In this document: positions 2,982 to 30,676 of the stretch, one piece after another
How the letters are laid out: each line of letters begins with the position of its first letter
Numbering within the stretch: the stretch's first letter is position 1
Assembly: GCA_016649875.1 (NCBI GenBank)
Contig: JAENWW010000002.1
Coordinates: 84,851 to 148,850, forward strand
Reading direction: 5' to 3'
Length of the DNA stretch: 64,000 nt
From: Coriobacteriia bacterium
GTDB lineage: Bacteria; Actinomycetota; Coriobacteriia; WRKU01; JAENWW01
Translations under genes and position numbers: made by a program
Notes under the pieces: generated by a model
What the model was told of the DNA's origin: nothing
What the model saw: the letters and a program-made list of their open reading frames with translations, nothing else
Databases searched by the model: none

Positions 2982-4802
2982 ATGAAGCAAAACGACATCA
3001 GAAATATTGCAATCATCGCGCACGTCGACCACGGAAAAACAACGCTGGTCGACCGTCTGCTGCAGGCCACGCACGTATTTCGCGAGAACCAAGAAGTGGC
3101 TGAACGTGTGCTCGACTCCAACGACCAAGAGCGCGAGCGCGGTATCACTATCCTCGCGAAGAACTTTTCGATTCGCTACAAAGACGTAAAGATAAATGTC
3201 ATCGATACCCCGGGTCACGCGGATTTCGGGGGAGAAGTCGAGCGTGTATTGAAGATGGCCGACGGCTGTCTCCTCATCGTGGATGCATTCGACGGACCGA
3301 TGCCACAAACACGGTTCGTGCTGAAAAAGGCTCTTGAGAACAAACTCAAGCCGATGGTCGTCATTAACAAAATCGATAGGCCGGGTGCTCGTCCCCATGA
3401 AGTTCTCGACGAGGTGTTCGAGCTCATGCTCGAACTCGGCGCTAACGATTCACAACTTGATTTTCCCGTGATTTACACAAGTGCGGTCAACGGGTATTCG
3501 CGCGTCGAACCCGACGACGGCAATATGGATATGGTTCCTTTGCTCGATGCGATTCTCGAGTACATCCCGGCACCGGATGTCGATATCAACGGTCCGCTCG
3601 CTTTGCAGGTGTGCAAAATCGATTATTCGAGTTATGTCGGACGTATCGGAATCGGACGTTTGTTCTCCGGCACGATTCACGACGGCGAAAAAGTGCTCGT
3701 CATCAAAAATGACGGTACCCGCTATGACGGAAATGTGAAGAAACTCTACACCTTCGAAGCGCTCGGCCGCGTCGAGGCGGAAGAGGCACATGCCGGCGAT
3801 ATCGTCGCCGTCGTCGGAGTCGAGGGAATCGACATCGGTGATATGTTCACTTCGAGTGAGCATCCGATTCAGCTCGACCCGATTCATGTCGAAGAGCCGA
3901 CGATGTCGGTCGTCTTCGAGCCCTCGACAAGCCCCCTTGTCGGACAAGAAGGTTCGATTGTCGGAGGTCGTCAGATAAAAGAGCGTCTCATGCACGAGGC
4001 CGAATCCAACATCTCCATGCGTATCACGGAGACCGAAGACAAAACCGGCATGGAAGTCGCCGGACGCGGCGTTTTGCATATCACCGTTTTAATGGAGACC
4101 ATGCGCCGCGAAGGTTATGAATTTCAGGTCGGACGTCCTCGCGTCATCATCAAACAGGATGAACACGGCAAGAAGATCGAACCGATTGAGCTCGCCGTCG
4201 TCGATGTACCGAGCGATTTGGCCGGTAAAGTCATCGAGATTTTCGGTGCGAAGGGTGGCGAGATGTTGGATATGGTGCAGCGTGATAATCAGGTTCACCT
4301 CGAGTTTAAAATCGCTTCCCGAGGCGTCATGGGGTTGCGAACCCGTATTCTCAACGCCACGCGCGGTGAGGCGACTCTGTTCCACCATTTTGCAGAGTAC
4401 GGTTCGTACCGAGGAGATCTCAGCGGTCGTATGAACGGCTCCCTCATCGCCATGTCGAATGAAAAGGCCGTTGCCTATGCGCTCGATTCTCTTCAACAGC
4501 GCGGTTCGATGTTCGTAAAACCGGGCGATGTCTGTTATGAAGGGATGATCGTCGGCGAGCACTCGAAGTCCGGCGATATGGTCGTAAACGTAGCGAAGGC
4601 AAAGCAACTGACCAACATGCGTACCTCCTCGGCCGATAAAGGAATCATTCTCGAGCCTCCGATGACCTTCACTTTGGAAGAGGCGCTCGAATATATTGAA
4701 GATGGCGAGCTTGTCGAAGTAACACCGAAGAGCATTCGTCTGCGCAAGCGACTTCTCAACGAGAAAGATCGCAAGAAAGGTCATGCGGGTATGGGCAGAT
4801 AA
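2982..4802 (+). CDS. typA: Translational GTPase TypA/BipA
   Basis: 606 aa. N-terminus [27 protein letters not shown] (G1 motif), DTPGHADFGGEVER, and an EF-G-like domain organisation. Confidence 0.9.
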   Translation: MKQNDIRNIAIIAHVDHGKTTLVDRLLQATHVFRENQEVAERVLDSNDQERERGITILAKNFSIRYKDVKINVIDTPGHADFGGEVERVLKMADGCLLIVDAFDGPMPQTRFVLKKALENKLKPMVVINKIDRPGARPHEVLDEVFELMLELGANDSQLDFPVIYTSAVNGYSRVEPDDGNMDMVPLLDAILEYIPAPDVDINGPLALQVCKIDYSSYVGRIGIGRLFSGTIHDGEKVLVIKNDGTRYDGNVKKLYTFEALGRVEAEEAHAGDIVAVVGVEGIDIGDMFTSSEHPIQLDPIHVEEPTMSVVFEPSTSPLVGQEGSIVGGRQIKERLMHEAESNISMRITETEDKTGMEVAGRGVLHITVLMETMRREGYEFQVGRPRVIIKQDEHGKKIEPIELAVVDVPSDLAGKVIEIFGAKGGEMLDMVQRDNQVHLEFKIASRGVMGLRTRILNATRGEATLFHHFAEYGSYRGDLSGRMNGSLIAMSNEKAVAYALDSLQQRGSMFVKPGDVCYEGMIVGEHSKSGDMVVNVAKAKQLTNMRTSSADKGIILEPPMTFTLEEALEYIEDGELVEVTPKSIRLRKRLLNEKDRKKGHAGMGR

Positions 4803-6854: not shown

Positions 6855-8024
6855 TTAACTGCAACTTCCCTGGCAAGGAATCGCCTTGTCTGAATAGGCG
6901 GTCGGTATTTTACGTTCGCTTGGGTGAAGTATGCACGATATATCTTCTTCCATGGTGTCGCCTGTGCGCTGCCAGGCCTTGACGCGGCAGCCGCGGCAGA
7001 TGCGACTGTATTCGCACTTCTCGGGGGCGCACTGCCCCTTGGATTCTTGGGTATCGATTTCAAAGAGGCGAGAGGTCGCTTCGGCAAAAGAAATCTCTCG
7101 GATATTTCCAACGGTCCAATCTTGGGCGAACTGACAGGCCATGACTCCGCCCTCGGAATTGATGGTCATATGTCCTTTTCCGACGGGGCACGCGGAGAAG
7201 ATTTGGAGACGTTCGAGTCCCTTATGGACATCGATTCCTTGTTCGATGAATTTTTCCGCGATGTAGGGGATGACCGAGGGGATGGCGCCGATGTCATAAT
7301 CCAAATCGTTGCCGGGCTTTTGGATGTCTTCGACGATGAAATCGCACAATTCGCGCCACTGTTCAGTGGTCACACGCATGTCCTCTTCGCCCTCCGAACG
7401 CCCCGACGTGATGAGGTCACAGATGTAAATCATGCCGCAATCGAGATCTTTGCACATCTGGATGATATCGAAAATATAGTTCCATGTTTCCTTGGTGAGC
7501 GCGGTCTTGAGTACGACGCCGACATCGTTTTTCCGAAGAGTCTTGATGGCGCTCATTACTCTTGCGTGCGTTCCCGGCACGCCGACCATGTCATCATGGA
7601 ATTTTTCCGGACCGTACATCGAAGTCGCCACCCAACGTACCCCGTTTTCCTTGAGTCGTTTGGCGCTTTTCTCGTCGATGAAGGTACAGTTCGTCGAAAT
7701 GGTGGGACGGACACCGGTGGCTGCGACCGCCTCGAGAATCTCCCAAAAGTTTTCGCGCATCATCGGCTCGCCGCCGCTCAAAAACGCGACCGGGACCTTC
7801 GCCTCGCTCATACGCTTCACGAGGTCTATGCATTCGGCGTCGGTTAGCTGGTCGGGAAGCGTGTGGGCATCGGCGGCCATATAGCAGTGATTGCATTTGA
7901 GATTGCAGCGATTGGTGATGTTCCAAATCAAACTGCTGGGACGGCCGAGCTTGACCGCCTGAAGCGCCTTGTTTTCCGATTCGGACGCGGCACCTTCAAA
8001 AAATAATGAGCGAACGTGAGCCAT
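6855..8024 (-). CDS. Radical SAM enzyme with C-terminal SPASM-like Cys-rich domain (peptide/protein maturase-like)
   Basis: CNLKCNHCY matches the CxxxCxxC radical SAM cluster motif, followed by a GGEP motif. The C-terminus carries multiple Cys clusters (CQFAQDW...CAPEKCEYSRICRGCRVK...C..C), typical of SPASM/twitch domains. The likely start is ATG at 8024 (MAHVRSL), preceded by AGGAGG. Confidence 0.7.
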   Translation of the reverse strand: MAHVRSLFFEGAASESENKALQAVKLGRPSSLIWNITNRCNLKCNHCYMAADAHTLPDQLTDAECIDLVKRMSEAKVPVAFLSGGEPMMRENFWEILEAVAATGVRPTISTNCTFIDEKSAKRLKENGVRWVATSMYGPEKFHDDMVGVPGTHARVMSAIKTLRKNDVGVVLKTALTKETWNYIFDIIQMCKDLDCGMIYICDLITSGRSEGEEDMRVTTEQWRELCDFIVEDIQKPGNDLDYDIGAIPSVIPYIAEKFIEQGIDVHKGLERLQIFSACPVGKGHMTINSEGGVMACQFAQDWTVGNIREISFAEATSRLFEIDTQESKGQCAPEKCEYSRICRGCRVKAWQRTGDTMEEDISCILHPSERKIPTAYSDKAIPCQGSCS

Positions 8025-23546: not shown

Positions 23547-24033
23547 TATTGTTTCACGCCAACTCGGACGGTCGCCGCGATTGCCGTGGCGTGTCGTGAA
23601 GACCTGCCGTTTCGAGTTTCCCCAAGTAATCGTTTCCCCCTCGTTGCTCGATGACGGAGACAGATTTCCGAACTGGGCGTATTTGTCCTGTCCCCATTTG
23701 GTTCGAAAAATCTCTCGAATCGAGGCGGAGGGCGGAGTTTCCCGGTGGGCTGCTCGCGTTTCGAGTGAGGAGAATCTTCGCAGCTGTCTCGAGCGACTCG
23801 ATACGGAAGTTCGAGAAGTGCGTCTTCTTGAATGCCGCAGCTCAGGTCAAGACGATGATGTGTGCGAAGATGTCGGTTTGGCCGGGCAACGCAATATCTA
23901 CGGCGTGAAATGTCTGCACATCCATGTGGCCTATGCCTTGGCGGGTCTCCATGATCCTATCGGAAATGAAATTCTTGAAGAATTGCGCTTCGAAGGGAAC
24001 GAATCATGCAAAGGGGGAGAACCATGCGCATAG
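23524..24033 (+). CDS. DUF501 domain protein
   Basis: VSRQLGRSPRL...FPNWAYLSCPHL...KCLHIHVAYALAG matches the DUF501 family found between ftsB and ppx in Actinobacteria. The start is uncertain; the ORF overlaps the ftsB-like 3' end. Confidence 0.6.
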   Translation: MHSSRLNSIVSRQLGRSPRLPWRVVKTCRFEFPQVIVSPSLLDDGDRFPNWAYLSCPHLVRKISRIEAEGGVSRWAARVSSEENLRSCLERLDTEVREVRLLECRSSGQDDDVCEDVGLAGQRNIYGVKCLHIHVAYALAGLHDPIGNEILEELRFEGNESCKGGEPCA

Positions 24034-24932
24034 CTGCAATCGATATCGGCACCGTTACGGCGCGTCTGCTCATCGCCGATGTGTATGAGGGCGTGATCGG
24101 CGAGGTCGTTCGCGATATCGAAATCACACAACTCGGCTCACGCCTATCTCAGAGTGGGGCGTTAAGTGATACCGGTATGCAAAACGTGTATGAAGCAGTG
24201 CGGCGTTTTGTGGTGAAAATTTCAGAGAGCAAAGTCGACAAGATCATCTGCACCGCCACGAGTGCGGCTCGCGACGCACATAACGGCGAGGCGTTCAAAG
24301 TCGGCTTGCGCGCCTGCGGCATCGAGCCTCATATCATTTCCGGACAAACGGAGGCGAGACTCTCCTTTCGCGGTGCGACCTACCGGAGACGGGGCGACGA
24401 TCTCCTCGTCATCGATCCCGGCGGAGGTTCGACTGAATTCATTTTTCGAGCCGGTGAAAACGATGCCGTCATCGCACAGTCGATGGATATCGGCTCCCGT
24501 CGTCTCACCGATATGTTCATCCGTCATGACCCGGTATCACCGGAAGAACTTGCAGACATTCGGACTTACATCAAAAAAATCGCCGGTGAATATTTCTTGA
24601 AGTTGCCTCATGCTCCGCGCGAGCTCGTCGCGGTGGCGGGGACTGCGACCACGTTGGTGACCATGAAATATGAGATGGCGGACTATGATCCTCTTTTCGT
24701 TCACGGGAAGGTCATAACGCGCGAGGATTTATCGCATAGTATCGAGCAACTTTGCGCAAAAACGCAAAAAGAGCGCGAAGCTATGCCGGGGCTCGAACCG
24801 AAAAGAGCTTCGGTGATATTGGCCGGATGTCTGATAATAGAACAGGTATTGGAGATTTCGCGCCTTTCGATGCTTACCATTAGCGATTACGACATTCTCT
24901 ATGGCATAATTTTGAGTGTTGATTTATTCTAG
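24024..24932 (+). CDS. ppx: Exopolyphosphatase / guanosine pentaphosphate phosphohydrolase family (Ppx/GppA)
   Basis: MRIAAIDIGTVTARLLIADV (ASKHA fold N-terminus), then DPGGGSTEF and AGTATTL motifs. Start ATG at 24024 with an AAGGGGGAGA RBS. Confidence 0.8.
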   Translation: MRIAAIDIGTVTARLLIADVYEGVIGEVVRDIEITQLGSRLSQSGALSDTGMQNVYEAVRRFVVKISESKVDKIICTATSAARDAHNGEAFKVGLRACGIEPHIISGQTEARLSFRGATYRRRGDDLLVIDPGGGSTEFIFRAGENDAVIAQSMDIGSRRLTDMFIRHDPVSPEELADIRTYIKKIAGEYFLKLPHAPRELVAVAGTATTLVTMKYEMADYDPLFVHGKVITREDLSHSIEQLCAKTQKEREAMPGLEPKRASVILAGCLIIEQVLEISRLSMLTISDYDILYGIILSVDLF

Positions 24933-24992
24933 AAAAGTGTGAATTGCGTGGCGTGTGTGCGGATTGTCGTCCGCACGTCATGAAAACTGCAT

Positions 24993-25068
24993 GGGGGTGT
25001 ATTCCAACGGCAGAGAAAGAGGACTTAAAATCCTTACAGTGTGGGTTCGAATCCCACCACCCCTACCA
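24993..25068 (+). tRNA. tRNA with anticodon UAA (formally Leu-UUA-decoding) but class I geometry: 76 nt, 5-nt variable loop, CCA encoded
   Basis: Manual fold gives acceptor GGGGGTG/CACCCCT (G1-U72), U8, and a D-arm with GG. Anticodon stem GAGGA/TCCTT with loop CTTAAAA (anticodon TAA at 25026-25028). Variable loop ACAGT. T-arm GTGGG-TTCGAAT-CCCAC. A73 then CCA. Confidence 0.6.
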
Positions 25069-25153
25069 CTGCAAAACCACGTCGCTTGATCTTTTCGAGA
25101 TTGAGCGGCTGTTTTTCGAATCGATACCGTGAATTGCGGATATAATCAAAATC

Positions 25154-26218
25154 ATGGATGAAGCAAAAAAAATACGCCTGACTCAAATGTCGAGCAAAGC
25201 CGGTTGAGCAGCGAAGTGGGGTCCGGCGGATCTCAAAGCGGTGCTGGATAAAATCGATCCCGGACAGAGCGACAATCTCATGCTCGGGTTCGAAACAAGC
25301 GACGATGCGGCTGTCTACAAGCTAACCGACGACATCGCCGGCTTGATGACGATTGACTTTTTCACGCCGATTGTCGATGACCCCTATGACTTCGGCCGCA
25401 TCACCGCGGCCAACGCGCTTTCGGACATATACGCCATGGGAGGCAAACCGCTCACCGCGTTGAACATGATTGCGTTTCCGTGTTCTTTGGGTCCCGACAT
25501 CGTCGGCGAAGTGGTGCGGGGCGGCGCCGAGAAAGTCGCGGAAGCCGGTGCAGTCGTCGTCGGCGGACACACGATAGACGATAAAGAACCGAAGTACGGT
25601 CTCTCGGTCTTCGGAGTCGTGAATCCTCTCAAGGTGCTTCGTAACAAGGGAGCGCGTGAGGCTGACGCAATCGTCGTCACCAAGGCGCTTGGCACCGGTC
25701 TATGGGGAACAGCCATTAAGCGCGGTGTGGCCGACGAGACAACCGCCCACGAGGCAATCGAATCCATGGCCAAACTCAATAAATACGCATGCGAGGCTCT
25801 CGAGGGAGTCGATGTCCATGCCCTTACCGACATCACCGGGTTCGGACTCGCCGGTCATCTGCACGAAATGGCGGAGGCGAGCGGTGTGGCCGCCCACATT
25901 GAGACGGAGTGCATACCTCTACTCGAGCAGGTCTATGAACTTTCAACCGGGAATGTGGTTCCGGGTCGCACGGCGGATATCATCGCTTGGACCCGAGAGT
26001 TTTTATCCTGGTCGGCCGAAAGTTATTCTCAGGAGGAGCGCCGCACGTGGATGCAAATTCTCTGTGATCCTCAAACAAGCGGCGGGCTTATGATTGCAAT
26101 GCCTCAAAACCAGGTTGAAACGTATTACGACAATCTCATCCGTATCGATTCGGATGCGATATGCGCAGTCGTCGGAACGTTCGAGCACGGAACTCCGGGC
26201 AAAATCACCATTAATTAG
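25154..26218 (+). CDS. selD: Selenide, water dikinase SelD, selenocysteine-containing (in-frame TGA)
   Basis: The 25241..26218 ORF has SelD motifs (DDAAVYKL, FFTPIVDDPYDFGRITAANALSDIYAMGGKP). Reading upstream in frame gives MDEAKKIRLTQMSSKAG-TGA-AAKWGPADLKAVL. This matches the E. coli N-terminus [30 protein letters not shown], with Sec at the catalytic Cys17 position. The TGA is at about 25205-25207 and the ATG at about 25154 (+/-1 nt counting uncertainty). A hairpin GGGGTCC-GGC-GGATCTC begins 11 nt after the TGA. Confidence 0.85.
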
Positions 26219-26285
26219 CTCGAAATATTTCTCAAATATCAATTATTATTATAATAACTATCAGCACTTTCAAAAAGGAGGCGGT

Positions 26286-26624
26286 ATGAAAAAATTCATG
26301 GTGCTTGCAACAGACGCAATCGGCAAGGGGAACGATGAGCTCGGCGCGATTCTCACACGTGTTTTTTTGACTTGTTTGGGGCAGGGGGAAGAGGTGCCCG
26401 AAGTTCTCGCTCTCATGAATGCAGGCGTTAAGTTGGCGTGTGAGGGCTCCGAAGTCCTCGATGAGCTCAGGGCCGTTGAAGCGCGAGGCGTGAAGATAAA
26501 AGCCTGTGGAACGTGTCTCGACTTTTTCGGAATCCGTGAGCAACTGATGGTCGGTGAGGCGGGAAAGATGCCCGATACCGTCGCAGCGCTCATGACGGCC
26601 GAGGACTCGATTGTAATCTCTTAA
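26286..26624 (+). CDS. Small DsrE/DsrF-like (YedF C-terminal-domain-like) protein, putative sulfur/selenium relay protein
   Basis: 112 aa, MKKFMVLATDAIGKGNDELG...KACGTCLDFFGI. Good RBS AAAGGAGG 6 nt upstream of ATG 26286. Located between selD and selA. The 176-aa track ORF is an artefactual 5' extension through an AT-rich promoter region. Confidence 0.5.
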   Translation: MKKFMVLATDAIGKGNDELGAILTRVFLTCLGQGEEVPEVLALMNAGVKLACEGSEVLDELRAVEARGVKIKACGTCLDFFGIREQLMVGEAGKMPDTVAALMTAEDSIVIS

Positions 26625-26698
26625 AAGAGCGCCTCGTTTCGGGTCCGTTTGTTGAAGCCGCAGGCGCGATTCAGGGATACATACGCTACAATGCAAGT

Positions 26699-28126
26699 AT
26701 GAAAACAAACATCACCACACAAGACCTTTTCAGATCATTGCCCAAGGTCGATGAAGTTCTCTCCGCGGAACAAGTCGCCGCGCTGCTACCGGCGGTTCCG
26801 CGCTCGGTGGTGCTTACTTCGGCACGTACTGCGATAGAAAATATGCGATCTGCCATCGCCACCGGGTCGCGAGCAGAACCGGTGTCACTTGCCGAAGTGG
26901 TGGCGGATACCATCTCAAGTGCACATATTCGTATGCAACCTTCGTTGCGAAGAGTCATCAATGCAACGGGTATAATCATTCACACGAATTTGGGACGGAG
27001 CATTTTGGCCGATTCGGCCGCCGAAGCGGTGCAAGAGGTAGCCTCGCATTATTCGACATTGGAATACAACTATGAAAGAGGCGTCCGCGGCTCACGCCAT
27101 GATCATGTAGAGTCTCTTCTTTGCGAGCTCACCGGAGCTGAGGCGGCTCTTGCGGTCAACAACAATGCGGCGGCGGTCATGATGTGTATCGCTTGTTTTT
27201 CACGTGGCCGGGAGGCAATCGTTTCTCGGGGGCAACTCGTCGAAATCGGCGGTTCGTTTCGTGTTCCCGACATCATGGCGGAGTCCGGTGCGCACATGGT
27301 GGAAGTGGGAGCGACGAACAAAACGCATCTTAAAGACTACGAAAATGCGACCAATGAGAAAACAGGTTTGTATCTCAAGGTCCATTCGTCCAATTACCGC
27401 GTGATCGGATTCACTTCGGAAGTCGAACTCGCCGAGCTTGTGGACCTCGGTGCGAAACATGACATTCCGGTTATGGAGGACCAAGGGTCCGGTGTTTTGC
27501 TCGATTTGAGAAAGTACGGTTTGCCCTATGAACCGACGGTTTCCGAATCGGTGAAAGCAGGGGCGAGCATCGTGACTTTTTCGGGAGATAAGCTTCTCGG
27601 GGGTCCCCAGGCAGGTATCATCGTCGGCAAATCTGAGGCGATTGCCCGGTTGAAAGCCCACCCTCTCGCCCGCGTGCTTCGTCTCGATAAGATGACCTTG
27701 GCCGCGCTGGAAGCCACGTTGATGATTTATCGCGATGAAGACAGGGCGGTTGAAGAAATTCCCACGCTTCACGCTTTGACGATGGATCTCGAAGAGTGCA
27801 AGACACGTGCGAACGGACTCGCCGAGTCTCTCCTCGAAGCTTTGAGAAAAGAAGGTCTACTCGGCACTGTGGATATTTCCGTCGATGTCGATATCGCTCG
27901 CGCCGGCGGAGGGTCGCTGCCTTTGGCCGACATTCCGACCGCTGTACTCTCGTTGAGATTCGAAGACGTTTCCGCCACTGAAGTCGAGCGTCTCTTGCGT
28001 ATCGATTCGCCGGTTCCCATCGTCGCGCGTATAAACGATGAGAGATTGCTCATCGATCCGCGTACGTTCGTGTCTGATGATGCATCTGTCGTCGTGGAGC
28101 AACTATGCAAAATACTGCGCCGCTGA
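26699..28126 (+). CDS. selA: L-seryl-tRNA(Sec) selenium transferase (selenocysteine synthase)
   Basis: 475 aa. SLPKVDEVL N-terminal motif. RVINATGIIIHTNLGRSILADSAAEAV (compare E. coli INATGTVLHTNLGRA). PLP-lysine region FSGDKLLGGPQAGII. Confidence 0.9.
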   Translation: MKTNITTQDLFRSLPKVDEVLSAEQVAALLPAVPRSVVLTSARTAIENMRSAIATGSRAEPVSLAEVVADTISSAHIRMQPSLRRVINATGIIIHTNLGRSILADSAAEAVQEVASHYSTLEYNYERGVRGSRHDHVESLLCELTGAEAALAVNNNAAAVMMCIACFSRGREAIVSRGQLVEIGGSFRVPDIMAESGAHMVEVGATNKTHLKDYENATNEKTGLYLKVHSSNYRVIGFTSEVELAELVDLGAKHDIPVMEDQGSGVLLDLRKYGLPYEPTVSESVKAGASIVTFSGDKLLGGPQAGIIVGKSEAIARLKAHPLARVLRLDKMTLAALEATLMIYRDEDRAVEEIPTLHALTMDLEECKTRANGLAESLLEALRKEGLLGTVDISVDVDIARAGGGSLPLADIPTAVLSLRFEDVSATEVERLLRIDSPVPIVARINDERLLIDPRTFVSDDASVVVEQLCKILRR

Positions 28127-30039
28127 TTCTGGGCACCGCCGGTCATATCGACCACGGAAAATCAACTTTGATAAAGGCTTTGACGGGCGTGGACCCCGAT
28201 CGCCTCGCCGAAGAAAAAGAGCGAGGCATCACCATCGAACTCGGTTTCGCCGAGTTGGTGACACCGAAAGGTGTGCACTTCGGCGTCGTCGATGTTCCCG
28301 GACATGAGAAGTTCGTGCGCCACATGGTTTCCGGTGCCGCCGGAATCGATGTCGCATTGCTGGTAATCGCTGCCGATGACGGAATCATGGTGCAAACGCG
28401 TGAGCATGCGGCCATTCTCAATTTGCTCGGTGTGGAACATGCGGTCGTCGCATTGACTAAAATCGATAGGGTCGAGGCGGACTGGGCCGATCTCGTCGAA
28501 ATGGATATAGAAACCCTTTTAGAGGGAACTCTTCTCGAAGGGTCGCCCGTCGTTCGCGTTTCATCGACGACCGGACGCGGCATCGAGGCGTTGCTAAGCG
28601 CACTCGACGACACTGCCGAAAAGATTGCTGAGCGGGGACGGACAAACAATACGTCCGTCGCTCGGCTTCCGATCGATCGCGTTTTCACCATCTCGGGGGC
28701 CGGGACGGTCGTGACGGGCACGTTATGGTCGGGGGCGATAGTGCTCGGCGATGAGCTGGAAGAGGTGTCCGCACACAAGAAAGTCCGCGTGCGCGGTATC
28801 CAAGTCCATAACGTCGATGTAGAACAAGCGTTGGCCGGAATGCGTGTCGCACTCAATCTATCGAATATCGATAAGTCCGAGGTATCTCGGGGCGACATGC
28901 TTGCCACGCGGGGTGCGCTTCGCGAAACGAATATCTTCAACGCAATCTTTACCTACATCGGCTCCGAGTCCTCGGAAAGCGACACCAAGCCGTTGAAGAG
29001 CGGGACTCGTGTTCACGTCCATCATGGAACCGTCGCAACTGTCGGCCAGATTTTTTTCTTCGACGAAAAGTCGATCCGGCCGAACCGGAGCGTCTTCGCT
29101 CAGATACGTTTGGAAAAACCGATAGCTCCCGTTTATCTCGACCATTTCATCATTCGAAGCTTTTCACCGGTTTTCACCATCGGAGGAGGCGTCGTCCTCG
29201 ATGCGTCTCCTGCAAAGCGTACGCGAATCTCTGCCGATGAGCACGACTTGCTCGAGGCGCTTGCGAGTCGAGATTACGAAAAGGCCGCATGCGAACTCCT
29301 CGTCGTCAAAAAGGAACCCCTGAGCAGTGCGATGATTGCCGGGCTGCTCGGATGCGAGCGGAGCCGCGTTGCAACTGCGCTCAATACTTCGAACGCAGCG
29401 CGCATCAAAGTCGCCAAAGAGACGCTGTTCGTCGATCCTCTCGTATACGACCATGTCGCCGCAGCGATAAAGACCGAGCTTCTCGCGCTCTACGACAGGT
29501 ATCCTTCTGAGCATGCTTTCTCCCTTCCGATGCTCAAAGACCGAGTCGATACGCGGATGACACCGGAGGTTTTTGCGGCATTCGCCGAAATCGCCGCCGA
29601 AGCGCCGGAAATCGAACTTGTCGCCGGTCGAATCAGCCATTCCGGGGCCGCGTCGAATATCCATGCGCTCGAAGATGAGATTGCACGACAGGCGCTCGCT
29701 CGTATCGGGCACCGGGGGTTGGAAGTCGAAACGACCGCTGAACTGGCGAGAGCGCTGGGGGCGGATTCAAAGTTCGTCGGTCGCATTCTCGGACGAATCG
29801 CCTCCGAAGGGGGACTCATCCGCCTCGCGGGGGATTTGCATTTTTTGCCCGGAGATGTCTCAAAAGCTGAAGAAATCGTGAAGAAGGCACTGCGAGATGC
29901 GACTGCCGAGGCACCCGTATCTGCCTCGGAATTGTGCGCTGCAATGGGTTTGAGCAGGAAGTATGCCATTCCGCTTCTCGAGTACTTCGATTCGCAGGGT
30001 GTTACGCGTCGAATCGGCAATGGGAGAATTCTCGTTTGA
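28105..30039 (+). CDS. selB: Selenocysteine-specific translation elongation factor SelB
   Basis: 644 aa. GTPase N-terminus ILGTAGHIDHGKSTLIKALTG, DVPGHEKF, NKID. Long C-terminal winged-helix extension as in SelB. Overlaps selA by 22 nt. Confidence 0.9.
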   Translation: MQNTAPLILGTAGHIDHGKSTLIKALTGVDPDRLAEEKERGITIELGFAELVTPKGVHFGVVDVPGHEKFVRHMVSGAAGIDVALLVIAADDGIMVQTREHAAILNLLGVEHAVVALTKIDRVEADWADLVEMDIETLLEGTLLEGSPVVRVSSTTGRGIEALLSALDDTAEKIAERGRTNNTSVARLPIDRVFTISGAGTVVTGTLWSGAIVLGDELEEVSAHKKVRVRGIQVHNVDVEQALAGMRVALNLSNIDKSEVSRGDMLATRGALRETNIFNAIFTYIGSESSESDTKPLKSGTRVHVHHGTVATVGQIFFFDEKSIRPNRSVFAQIRLEKPIAPVYLDHFIIRSFSPVFTIGGGVVLDASPAKRTRISADEHDLLEALASRDYEKAACELLVVKKEPLSSAMIAGLLGCERSRVATALNTSNAARIKVAKETLFVDPLVYDHVAAAIKTELLALYDRYPSEHAFSLPMLKDRVDTRMTPEVFAAFAEIAAEAPEIELVAGRISHSGAASNIHALEDEIARQALARIGHRGLEVETTAELARALGADSKFVGRILGRIASEGGLIRLAGDLHFLPGDVSKAEEIVKKALRDATAEAPVSASELCAAMGLSRKYAIPLLEYFDSQGVTRRIGNGRILV

Positions 30040-30082
30040 CAATGGGCGTGATTATTCCCACAATGGTAAAGCTTGTAAACTC

Positions 30083-30179
30083 GGAGCCGGATTCGTCCTG
30101 GTGGGCGACGCGGCCTTCAAAGCCGTCGTGAGGGGTGAAGAACTTCTCGGGTGTGTTCGATTCGCACACGGTTCCGCCA
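30083..30179 (+). tRNA. selC: tRNA-Sec (anticodon UCA)
   Basis: 97 nt, GGAGCCGGATTCGTCCTGGTGGGCGACGCGGCCTTCAAAGCCGT...TGTGTTCGATTCGCACACGGTTCCGCCA. 6-bp D-stem TCGTCC/GGGCGA with a 4-nt D-loop TGGT (the Sec hallmark). Anticodon loop CTTCAAA. Long variable arm. T-loop TTCGATT. G73 then CCA. Lies 44 nt after the selB stop. Confidence 0.8.
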
Positions 30180-30202: not shown

Positions 30203-30676
30203 GTGTCATTATTCGGAGCAAACGTGAAGCGTAGATATGTGGTCGTTCTTGTGTGTATCGTGTTGATGGGCACAGGCACTGCGGTGCTGAGCGGATGTTC
30301 CGCGAAAAAAAGCACTGCGAATGCGGCGGACGCTTCACAGGTGGCTGAGGTCGGAGCGACCGTCAACGGAGAGATGAAAGCAGGCTATCCGGAAAGCCTC
30401 CCCCTTTGGAGCGGTGCGACGGTCGTCAGTTCGAAGCATACCGACAAAGGGCAGTTCAATGTATATGAACTCAATATGACGACCACGGCGAGCTACAGCA
30501 AAGTCGTGTACGGCTACGGAAAAGGACTGCAAAACGCCGGTTGGGATGCCAGAAGTCTCGGAGGAGACGGAACATCGACGGCAATCTCGGCGACTAAAGG
30601 CTCCCTCGAAGCCGCCATTACCATCTCAAAAGATAAGAGCGGACTGACATCGATAGTGATATCGGTTCAGATGTAA
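30203..30676 (+). CDS. Putative lipoprotein of unknown function
   Basis: Signal peptide with lipobox AVLSGCSA. Low-complexity Thr/Ser-containing mature region. The start (ATG 30203 or GTG 30224) is uncertain. Confidence 0.5.
   Translation: MSLFGANVKRRYVVVLVCIVLMGTGTAVLSGCSAKKSTANAADASQVAEVGATVNGEMKAGYPESLPLWSGATVVSSKHTDKGQFNVYELNMTTTASYSKVVYGYGKGLQNAGWDARSLGGDGTSTAISATKGSLEAAITISKDKSGLTSIVISVQM

What the first reader, a model, noticed from the sequence alone, without database searches (positions are those of the whole stretch)
24993..25068. Atypical tRNA with UAA anticodon but class I (short variable arm) architecture, immediately upstream of the Sec locus
The sequence folds into a well-formed 76-nt tRNA with U8, GG in the D-loop, a canonical TTCGAAT T-loop and A73-CCA. 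Its anticodon loop CUUAAAA has anticodon UAA, which would read Leu UUA/UUG. All bacterial tRNA-Leu are class II with a long variable arm; this molecule has a 5-nt variable loop and a G1-U72 pair. Its anticodon arm, GGACUUAAAAUCC, differs from the E. coli tRNA-Sec arm GGACUUCAAAUCC by a single anticodon base. Possibilities include a non-canonical Leu isoacceptor for rare UUA codons in a GC-rich genome, or a tRNA-like element or pseudo-tRNA marking an integration site next to the sel module. It could also have a regulatory role.
Basis: seen in the sequence. Interest (0 to 1): 0.6.

Follow-up and report, generated by a model that had tools for sequence, protein, structure and literature searches.

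The report
Short-armed leucine tRNA, known type
This is a real, conserved leucine tRNA that lacks the usual long extra arm; the type has already been shown to work in Streptomyces, is common in Actinobacteria, and sits next to the selenocysteine genes here only by accident of gene order.

Summary
Window 24993-25068 (+) is a 76-nt tRNA with anticodon UAA, a 5-nt variable loop (ACAGU), a G1·U72 pair, A73 and an encoded CCA. ARAGORN calls it and Rfam scores it at 58 bits.

It is not an oddity tied to selenium. The premise that all bacterial tRNA-Leu are class II is wrong. Streptomyces coelicolor has a type I tRNALeu(CAA) with variable loop ACAGC, and its single LeuRS leucylates it (PMC6614811).

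A pattern scan of species-representative genomes hit its 120-locus limit with 73-77-nt tRNA(UAA) genes. They occur in Mycobacterium, Nocardia, Rhodococcus, Arthrobacter, Corynebacterium, Coriobacteriia, Planctomycetota and others. Covariation supports the cloverleaf: 99.6% of cells paired and 15 of 20 pairs with double changes. A family model built without the window scores it at 88 bits.

In all 41 loci that also hold a Ppx gene, the tRNA lies downstream of it on the same strand, as in the window. None of the 120 loci holds selD or selA. A terminator-like hairpin separates the tRNA from selD.

UUA is a used codon here (4.3 per 1000) and aligns mostly with Leu in homologues. The genome is about 52% GC, not GC-rich.

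Verdict: an ordinary type I tRNALeu(UAA), a new member of a known kind, of low interest.

The parts
24993..25068 (+). Type I (short variable loop) tRNA-Leu, anticodon UAA, with encoded CCA. Acceptor 24993-24999 / 25058-25064 (G1·U72). Anticodon 25026-25028. Variable loop ACAGU 25036-25040. Discriminator A73 at 25065.
   Evidence: ARAGORN. Rfam tRNA 58 bits. Family covariance model built without the window scores it at 88 bits, against 60.9 for the next window tRNA. Covariation in 42 family members.
25081..25116 (+). Terminator-like hairpin (13 pairs, loop of 3) followed by TGTTTTT, 13 nt after the tRNA 3' end and before the selD start at 25154.
   Evidence: Consensus scan. One such site was found in 600 nt, where shuffles give 0.7, so this is suggestive only. 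Transcriptional insulation of the tRNA from selD is inferred, not shown.
24006..24932 (+). Ppx/GppA-family exopolyphosphatase gene, last gene of a DivIC-DUF501-Ppx run. It is the conserved upstream neighbour of this tRNA gene.
   Evidence: Pfam PF02541, E = 5e-49. In 41 of 41 fetched loci that hold a Ppx homologue, the tRNA(UAA) lies downstream on the same strand, 12 nt to 5.1 kb away.

Best explanation
This is a functional elongator tRNA-Leu of the type I (short variable loop) architecture with anticodon UAA. It is the local copy of a gene widely distributed in Actinomycetota that sits downstream of the DUF501-ppx cluster. I infer that it is transcribed with or just after ppx, ends at the hairpin at 25081-25116, and is charged with leucine by the cell's LeuRS. 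Bacterial LeuRS recognises U8:A14, the D/T elbow and the 3' end rather than the anticodon, and in S. coelicolor it accepts a 5-nt variable loop. The tRNA would then decode UUA, and probably UUG, as leucine. Its position 86 nt upstream of selD is an accident of gene order in this lineage and has no link to selenocysteine.

Shown here: the structure, its conservation, the synteny, and that UUA means Leu in this genome.
Shown by others, for a sister tRNA: leucylation of a type I tRNALeu, and in vivo UUA decoding by that body carrying a UAA anticodon.
Inferred: charging and decoding by this particular molecule.
For: - Cloverleaf and tRNA scores.
- Family size: at least 120 species-representative genomes carry a 73-77-nt tRNA(UAA) with the same D arm (NCC-AAYYGGCAG-AGGN, conserved C13·A22 mismatch) and a 5-nt variable loop.
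- Covariation: in 42 diverse members, 99.6% of cells pair and 15 of 20 pairs show changes on both sides. 0 of 500 shuffles reach this, and slid controls give 36-56% paired.
- Invariant positions: U8, A14, G18, G19 and A73 are invariant; A15 and U48 are at least 90% conserved. These are the elements listed as E. coli tRNALeu identity elements in PMC6614811.
- Membership: a model built from 38 members, excluding the window and its two nearest relatives, scores the window tRNA at 88 bits. The next best is 60.9.
- Purifying selection: a relative whose SelA is 66% identical keeps 72 of 76 bases, with a compensatory U10-A25 to G10-C25 change.
- Experimental precedent: S. coelicolor type I tRNALeu(CAA), variable loop ACAGC, is leucylated by its single LeuRS (kcat/Km 6.25 versus 14.2 s-1 uM-1 for type II). 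With its anticodon changed to UAA it replaces bldA (PMC6614811).
- Codon meaning: UUA occurs 79 times in 18,597 codons, spread over 37 of the 50 long ORFs scanned. It aligns with Leu at invariant ClpC positions 198 and 396 and at Mfd position 655. Leu is the commonest residue at 8 of 11 further sites.
- Synteny: ppx upstream on the same strand in 41 of 41 loci; no SelD or SelA in any of the 120 genome loci.
Against: - No expression, processing or aminoacylation data exist for this molecule.
- I could not see the rest of the genome. I therefore do not know whether a class II tRNALeu(UAA) also exists, which would make this one redundant.
- The D stem is weak (3 pairs, two of them U-A), and thermodynamic folding alone does not single the sequence out (z = -0.79).
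- No sigma-70-like promoter was found upstream.
- In PMC6614811, E. coli LeuRS and one Streptomyces LeuRS did not charge the type I tRNA. Charging therefore depends on a LeuRS that I have not examined.
- The characterised S. coelicolor tRNA has anticodon CAA, and CAA-type genes are not at the ppx locus. It is a paralogue, not the orthologue.
Confidence: 0.86

Rival explanations
1. It is a functional type I tRNALeu(UAA) but redundant. A canonical class II tRNALeu(UAA) elsewhere in the genome does most UUA decoding, and this copy is a minor or conditionally used isoacceptor.
For: S. coelicolor carries type I and type II tRNALeu side by side. The window covers only 64 kb and 8 tRNA genes, so the rest of the tRNA set is unseen.
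Against: Conservation of 72 of 76 bases between lineages whose proteins are 47-66% identical, together with conserved synteny across many Actinomycetota genera, argues for strong and constant selection. In S. coelicolor the two types carry different anticodons, so they are not duplicates of each other.
Confidence: 0.25
2. It is a tRNA with a Leu anticodon but another amino-acid identity, acting as a mistranslating or recoding tRNA in the way tRNAProX or allo-tRNAs do.
For: The class I body is unusual for Leu. The G1·U72 pair and the weak D stem are atypical at first sight.
Against: UUA codons sit at invariant or mostly-Leu positions in ClpC, Mfd, SelB, Ppx and others. UUA is used in most of the ORFs scanned (37 of 50), so systematic miscoding would be costly. 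The D arm and tertiary positions (A14, A15-U48, G18G19, 3-bp D stem with a 13·22 mismatch, A73) are Leu-like. G1·U72 also occurs in E. coli tRNALeu(UAA), according to PMC6614811. A sister tRNA is leucylated.
Confidence: 0.04
3. It is a Sec-linked element: a regulatory tRNA-like RNA or selC-like paralogue that belongs to the sel operon.
For: It lies 86 nt upstream of a Sec-containing selD and 5 kb from tRNA-Sec.
Against: In relatives L005/L006 the same tRNA stays 8 nt after ppx, while two minus-strand genes separate it from selD. Relatives L003/L004 have selD-selA-selB-tRNASec with no such tRNA. None of the 120 genome loci with this tRNA has SelD or SelA nearby. It has 7/5 geometry, a 3-bp D stem and no long arm, unlike tRNA-Sec. 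A terminator-like hairpin precedes selD.
Confidence: 0.02
4. It is a pseudo-tRNA or att-site remnant that marks the insertion point of a mobile sel module.
For: tRNA genes of this family are used as integration sites elsewhere: L019, L028 and L118 hold only the 3' half. Content between the tRNA and selD differs between the window and L005.
Against: The window copy is full length with all stems intact. No second copy of its 3' half exists in the 64-kb window at up to 3 mismatches. The composition profile shows no step at the tRNA.
Confidence: 0.02

Closest known systems
Streptomyces coelicolor type I tRNALeu(CAA) (Fan et al. 2019, NAR 47:6369, PMC6614811; Pettersson & Kirsebom 2011 as cited there)
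   Same: Both are bacterial (actinobacterial) tRNALeu with a 5-nt variable loop of almost the same sequence (ACAGC versus ACAGU). Both have U8:A14, G18G19, A73 and CCA, and both serve a UUR codon. The S. coelicolor body with a UAA anticodon decodes UUA in vivo.
   Different: The natural anticodon here is UAA, not CAA. C48 is replaced by U48. The window has G1·U72. CAA-type genes found in metagenomes are not next to ppx, so this is a paralogous lineage. Leucylation has not been tested for the UAA form.
Canonical class II bacterial tRNALeu(UAA), e.g. Streptomyces bldA or E. coli leuZ
   Same: Same anticodon and codon. Same A73. Same Leu-type D arm (3-bp stem with non-Watson-Crick 13·22, A14 A15 ... 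G18G19). E. coli tRNALeu(UAA) also has G1·U72, according to PMC6614811.
   Different: Class II tRNAs have a variable arm of 11 nt or more (17 nt in bldA). This one has 5 nt.
Animal mitochondrial tRNALeu(UUR)
   Same: Type I architecture, UAA anticodon, A73. Human mitochondrial LeuRS charges the S. coelicolor type I tRNA (PMC6614811).
   Different: It is organellar and structurally relaxed. S. coelicolor LeuRS does not charge it. No evidence of direct descent.
tRNA-Sec, selC-like tRNACys and allo-tRNAs (8/4, 9/3 or 8/5 acceptor/T geometry; from my own knowledge of Mukai et al. 2017)
   Same: Only the neighbourhood of sel genes and a similar-looking anticodon stem.
   Different: This tRNA has 7/5 geometry, a 3-bp D stem, no long arm and a sense anticodon. 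The window's real tRNA-Sec is at 30083-30179.

Membership tests
Type I (short variable loop) bacterial tRNALeu, as defined by S. coelicolor tRNALeu(CAA) | Standard 7/5 cloverleaf with a variable loop of exactly 5 nt and no extra arm | tested here: met
   Rfam alignment. Variable loop ACAGU at 25036-25040. The structure is supported by covariation in 42 relatives. PMC6614811 gives A44C45A46G47C48 for the S. coelicolor tRNA.
Type I (short variable loop) bacterial tRNALeu, as defined by S. coelicolor tRNALeu(CAA) | Leucine anticodon | tested here: met
   U34 A35 A36 at 25026-25028. The reference member has CAA, but it works with UAA when mutated.
Type I (short variable loop) bacterial tRNALeu, as defined by S. 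coelicolor tRNALeu(CAA) | Leu-type core: U8:A14, G18G19, U54:A58, A73, C74C75A76 | tested here: met
   All are present in the window sequence. U8, A14, G18, G19 and A73 are invariant in the family alignment. Their importance is taken from PMC6614811.
Type I (short variable loop) bacterial tRNALeu, as defined by S. coelicolor tRNALeu(CAA) | Is charged with leucine by the organism's LeuRS | not testable with these tools
   Needs in vitro aminoacylation or charged-tRNA sequencing. Indirect support only: UUA codons align with Leu.
Widespread ppx-linked type I tRNA(UAA) family (defined here) | Sequence and structure match to a family covariance model built without the window | tested here: met
   88 bits, E = 3e-26, full length. 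The other window tRNAs score 60.9 bits or less.
Widespread ppx-linked type I tRNA(UAA) family (defined here) | Located downstream of DUF501-Ppx on the same strand | tested here: met
   Window: ppx ends at 24932 and the tRNA starts at 24993. The same arrangement holds in 41 of 41 loci with a Ppx hit.
Canonical class II bacterial tRNALeu | Long variable arm (more than 10 nt, forming a stem-loop) | tested here: not met
tRNA-Sec / selC-like tRNAs | Acceptor plus T branch of 13 or 12 bp in 8/5, 9/4 or 8/4 form, 6-bp D stem, long variable arm, UCA anticodon | tested here: not met
   In a focused scan at E <= 1 the kept match here is RF00005 (58 bits); two lower-scoring overlapping matches from the same clan were dropped and not named, and no RF01852 match reached gathering score at this position. 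It has 7/5 geometry, a 3-bp D stem, a 5-nt loop and a UAA anticodon. The true tRNA-Sec is at 30083-30179 (68 bits).
att-site tRNA fragment / tRNA pseudogene | Truncated or stem-disrupted copy, usually paired with a direct repeat of the tRNA 3' end | tested here: not met
   Full-length match to model positions 1-71. No second copy of the 3' 30 nt in the window at up to 3 mismatches.

The most novel reading that the evidence does not exclude
Type I tRNALeu is not a Streptomyces curiosity. It may be the standard, and perhaps the only, reader of UUA (with a sister type I gene for UUG) across much of Actinomycetota, including Mycobacterium, Nocardia, Corynebacterium and Coriobacteriia, and it recurs in Planctomycetota and other phyla. 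If so, the textbook rule that bacterial tRNALeu is class II fails for the UUR isoacceptors of whole phyla. LeuRS enzymes able to charge armless tRNALeu would then be common rather than 'the only prokaryotic LeuRS' as stated in PMC6614811.
Probability: 0.5. Interest if true: 0.35.

Novelty: new member of a known kind. Interest (0 to 1): 0.18.

Why it matters
For this window it matters little. Annotation pipelines that name tRNAs by anticodon, as ARAGORN does here, would call this gene tRNA-Leu(TAA), and its architecture has a biochemically characterised precedent.

The useful outcome is corrective. The tRNA should not be read as part of the selenocysteine locus or as evidence of recoding.

The side observation may be worth a short systematic survey. 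Both scans, for UAA in species-representative genomes and for CAA in metagenomes, hit their 120-locus limits. The only paper on the subject that I could find treats type I tRNALeu as a rarity of some Streptomyces.

Tried and rejected
- Thermodynamic folding of the single sequence gives acceptor, anticodon and T arms but no D arm. The z-score is only -0.79, so it is uninformative and covariation was used instead.
- The sigma-70 promoter scan upstream of the tRNA found nothing. The transcription start is unresolved.
- A search for an att-like repeat of the tRNA 3' half in the window found none.
- Body resemblance to tRNA-Trp or tRNA-Tyr was considered from memory. The window's own tRNA-Trp is unrelated in sequence, and only the 5' acceptor strand resembles its tRNA-Tyr, so this was dropped. 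The family model ranks Thr(UGU) and Trp next, 27-31 bits lower.
- I tested whether CAA-type short tRNALeu genes occupy the same ppx-linked locus, which would make them orthologues with a switched anticodon. None of the 120 metagenome loci has Ppx or DUF501 nearby, though many of those loci are short. The result is negative but weak.
- Literature searches found nothing specific on a natural type I tRNALeu(UAA), on citing papers of PMC6614811, or on mycobacterial tRNALeu structure. One malformed query failed.
- The idea that U34 is a selenouridine target because selD is adjacent was not pursued. The sel linkage itself is not conserved.
- The E. coli tRNA-Sec arm comparison was not checked against a database, because the window's own tRNA-Sec already differs.

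Full report
**Observation**

ARAGORN finds a 76-nt tRNA at 24993-25068 (+) with anticodon UAA. The Rfam tRNA model matches full length at 58 bits, against a gathering score of 29.

The sequence is GGGGGUGUAUUCCAACGGCAGAGAAAGAGGACUUAAAAUCCUUACAGUGUGGGUUCGAAUCCCACCACCCCUACCA. Its features are:
- a 7-bp acceptor stem with G1·U72;
- U8 and A14;
- a D stem of three pairs plus a C13·A22 mismatch, and a D loop AACGGCAG;
- an anticodon stem-loop GAGGA-CUUAAAA-UCCUU;
- a 5-nt variable loop ACAGU;
- a T arm GUGGG-UUCGAAU-CCCAC;
- A73 and an encoded CCA.

The statement that the genome is GC-rich is not: the window is about 52-53% GC.

**Surroundings**

Upstream on the same strand are DivIC-like, DUF501 and Ppx/GppA genes. 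Ppx occupies 24006-24932.

Downstream lies a full selenocysteine operon:
- selD, from 25154, with an in-frame TGA;
- a YedF-like gene;
- selA at 26699-28126 and selB at 28105-30039;
- tRNA-Sec at 30083-30179.

A terminator-like hairpin followed by a T run lies at 25081-25116, between the tRNA and selD. SelA homologues place the organism among uncultured Coriobacteriia-like Actinomycetota. The best hit is 91% identical, the next about 70%.

**Is the tRNA tied to the sel genes?**

It is not.
- In L005/L006 (SelA 66% identical) the same tRNA lies 8 nt after ppx. Two minus-strand genes, a Big_2 protein and a sortase, separate it from selD.
- In L003/L004 the sel genes are present in another context, without this tRNA.
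- The L005 tRNA differs from the window's at 4 of 76 positions. Two of those differences form a compensatory U10-A25 to G10-C25 change.

**How widespread is it?**

I scanned one genome per GTDB species with the pattern GGACTTAAAATCC-N9-11-GGTTCRANTCC, which requires the UAA anticodon arm, a short variable region and a T arm. The scan stopped at its 120-locus limit.

ARAGORN calls a 73-77-nt tRNA(UAA) in 119 of the 127 sequences scanned (126 fetched loci plus the window; searches give the sequences). The hosts include:
- Actinomycetota: Mycobacterium, Mycolicibacterium, Nocardia, Rhodococcus, Gordonia, Corynebacterium, Arthrobacter, Rothia, Kocuria, Rubrobacteraceae, Planktophila and a Coriobacteriia MAG (L075, nearly identical to the window);
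- other groups: Planctomycetota, Verrucomicrobiales, Chloroflexota and some proteobacterial MAGs.

Nearly all share the D arm NCC-AAYYGGCAG-AGGN with C13·A22 and a 5-nt variable loop, often ACAGU, CCAGU or CAAGU.

In an alignment of 42 diverse members:
- 99.6% of pair cells are standard pairs;
- 15 of 20 pairs show changes on both sides, and the five that never vary were fixed by the search pattern;
- 0 of 500 shuffles reach the observed values, and slid controls give 36-56% paired;
- G1·U72 occurs in 16 of 42 members.

A covariance model built from 38 members, excluding the window, L005 and L075, scores the window tRNA at 88 bits. The next window tRNA scores 60.9.

**Synteny**

In 41 of the 120 genome loci a Ppx homologue lies within the 8 kb held. 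In all 41 it is upstream of the tRNA on the same strand, 12 nt to 5.1 kb away, usually preceded by DUF501. Sixteen of the 28 loci with at least 6 kb of upstream sequence show this arrangement. None of the 120 loci contains SelD or SelA. The conserved partner of this tRNA is therefore the DUF501-ppx cluster, and the adjacency to selD is specific to the window's lineage.

**What is known**

Fan et al. 2019 (PMC6614811) describe a type I tRNALeu(CAA) in Streptomyces coelicolor with variable loop A44C45A46G47C48.
- It is leucylated by the organism's single LeuRS with kcat/Km 6.25 s-1 uM-1, against 14.2 for the type II tRNALeu(UAA).
- It could not be deleted.
- U8:A14 and a variable loop of five nucleotides matter for charging.
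- Citing Pettersson and Kirsebom 2011, this is the only isoacceptor that replaces bldA when its anticodon is changed to UAA.

The same paper lists the E. coli tRNALeu identity set: A73, A14, A15-U48, G18/G19-U55/C56 and U54-A58. All of these are present in the window tRNA. The paper also mentions a G1-U72 pair in E. coli tRNALeu(UAA).

The premise that all bacterial tRNA-Leu are class II is therefore outdated. The window's variable loop (ACAGU) differs from the characterised one (ACAGC) by one base.

**Meaning of UUA in this genome**

In 50 long ORFs of the window, UUA occurs 79 times in 18,597 codons. That is 4.3 per 1000, or 4.7% of Leu codons. UUG occurs at 20.4 per 1000. UUA is spread over 37 of the 50 ORFs.

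UUA-encoded positions align as follows:
- with Leu at two invariant ClpC positions, aa 198 and 396, while the other two ClpC sites align with Ile or with a variable position;
- with Leu in the Mfd motif KQVxxL;
- with Leu as the commonest residue at 8 of 11 sites in Ppx, SelD, SelB, an ABC ATPase, a polyprenyl synthase and others.

UUA therefore means leucine here, and a UUA reader is needed.

**Interpretation**

The tRNA is a type I tRNALeu(UAA), a natural UAA-anticodon member of the short-arm tRNALeu kind known from Streptomyces.

Charging by LeuRS and decoding of UUA/UUG are inferred. The grounds are the Leu-type core, the strong purifying selection with compensatory changes, the experimental precedent, and the Leu meaning of UUA.

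That is the main open point.

The rival readings each fail a direct test, as listed under the rival explanations. They are a Sec-linked element, an att-site remnant and a mischarging tRNA.

**Additional scan**

The CAA version of the pattern also saturated the metagenome scan. 108 short tRNA(CAA) genes with the same body plan were found in 120 loci, and none was next to ppx. The UAA and CAA forms thus look like paralogous type I genes for the two UUR codons. Both are far more common than the single literature example suggests. I found no paper describing this distribution.

**Verdict**

Novelty is 'new member of a known kind' and interest is low.

Noticed in passing
window 25154-30179: A complete selenocysteine operon. 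selD has an in-frame TGA (Sec) at 25205-25207 in the motif SKAG-U-AAKWGP. It is followed by a 112-aa YedF-like selenium-metabolism gene (about 26286-26624; TIGR03527, 117.5 bits), selA, selB and tRNA-Sec.
   Followed up: partly
L019 (about 7010-7043, minus strand), L028 (about 3581-3614, minus strand), L118: These loci hold only the 3' half of the type I tRNA(UAA), from the anticodon arm onward, with unrelated sequence in place of the 5' half. They look like att-site duplicates left by elements that integrate into this tRNA gene in Mycobacterium, Rubrobacteraceae and Arthrobacter.
   Followed up: no
L008 3550-3912; L043 1411-1736; L041 687-1504: tRNA arrays in Planctomycetota, Parvularcula and Flavobacteriaceae MAGs in which several Leu isoacceptors (CAG, UAA, GAG, UAG) are all 74-77 nt long, so all are short-armed. 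They are possibly phage or mobile-element tRNA arrays. A short-loop tRNALeu(TAG) in a mycobacterial tRNA cluster is mentioned in PMC6582537.
   Followed up: no
One sequence, GCCTCGGTACTCCAACGGTAGAGAGGGCGGACTCAAAATCC..., recurs 50 times. None lies next to ppx.
   Followed up: partly
L115 (Alphaproteobacteria MAG chromosome OZ245840.1): A tRNA(UAA) with a typical class II Leu D arm (GUGGUGGAAUUGGUAGACAC, G13·A22) but only a 5-nt variable loop. This suggests that the long arm was lost independently in a different tRNALeu lineage.
   Followed up: no
window 24957-24976: A 7-bp inverted repeat, GTGCGGA-TTGTCG-TCCGCAC, lies between the ppx stop (24932) and the tRNA 5' end (24993). It could be a ppx terminator or a processing structure. 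No T run follows it.
   Followed up: no
L005/L006 1537-4351 versus window 25069-25153: Relatives carry two minus-strand genes, a 592-aa Big_2/Ig-like surface protein and a sortase, between the tRNA and selD. The window has only 85 nt there. There has been an insertion or deletion right at the tRNA 3' flank.
   Followed up: no
window 30203-30676: A 157-aa ORF directly after tRNA-Sec has no Pfam or NCBIfam hit. ORFs of 150-181 aa sit at the same position in relatives L001 and L003, before the ABC ATPase and UPF0014 pair.
   Followed up: no
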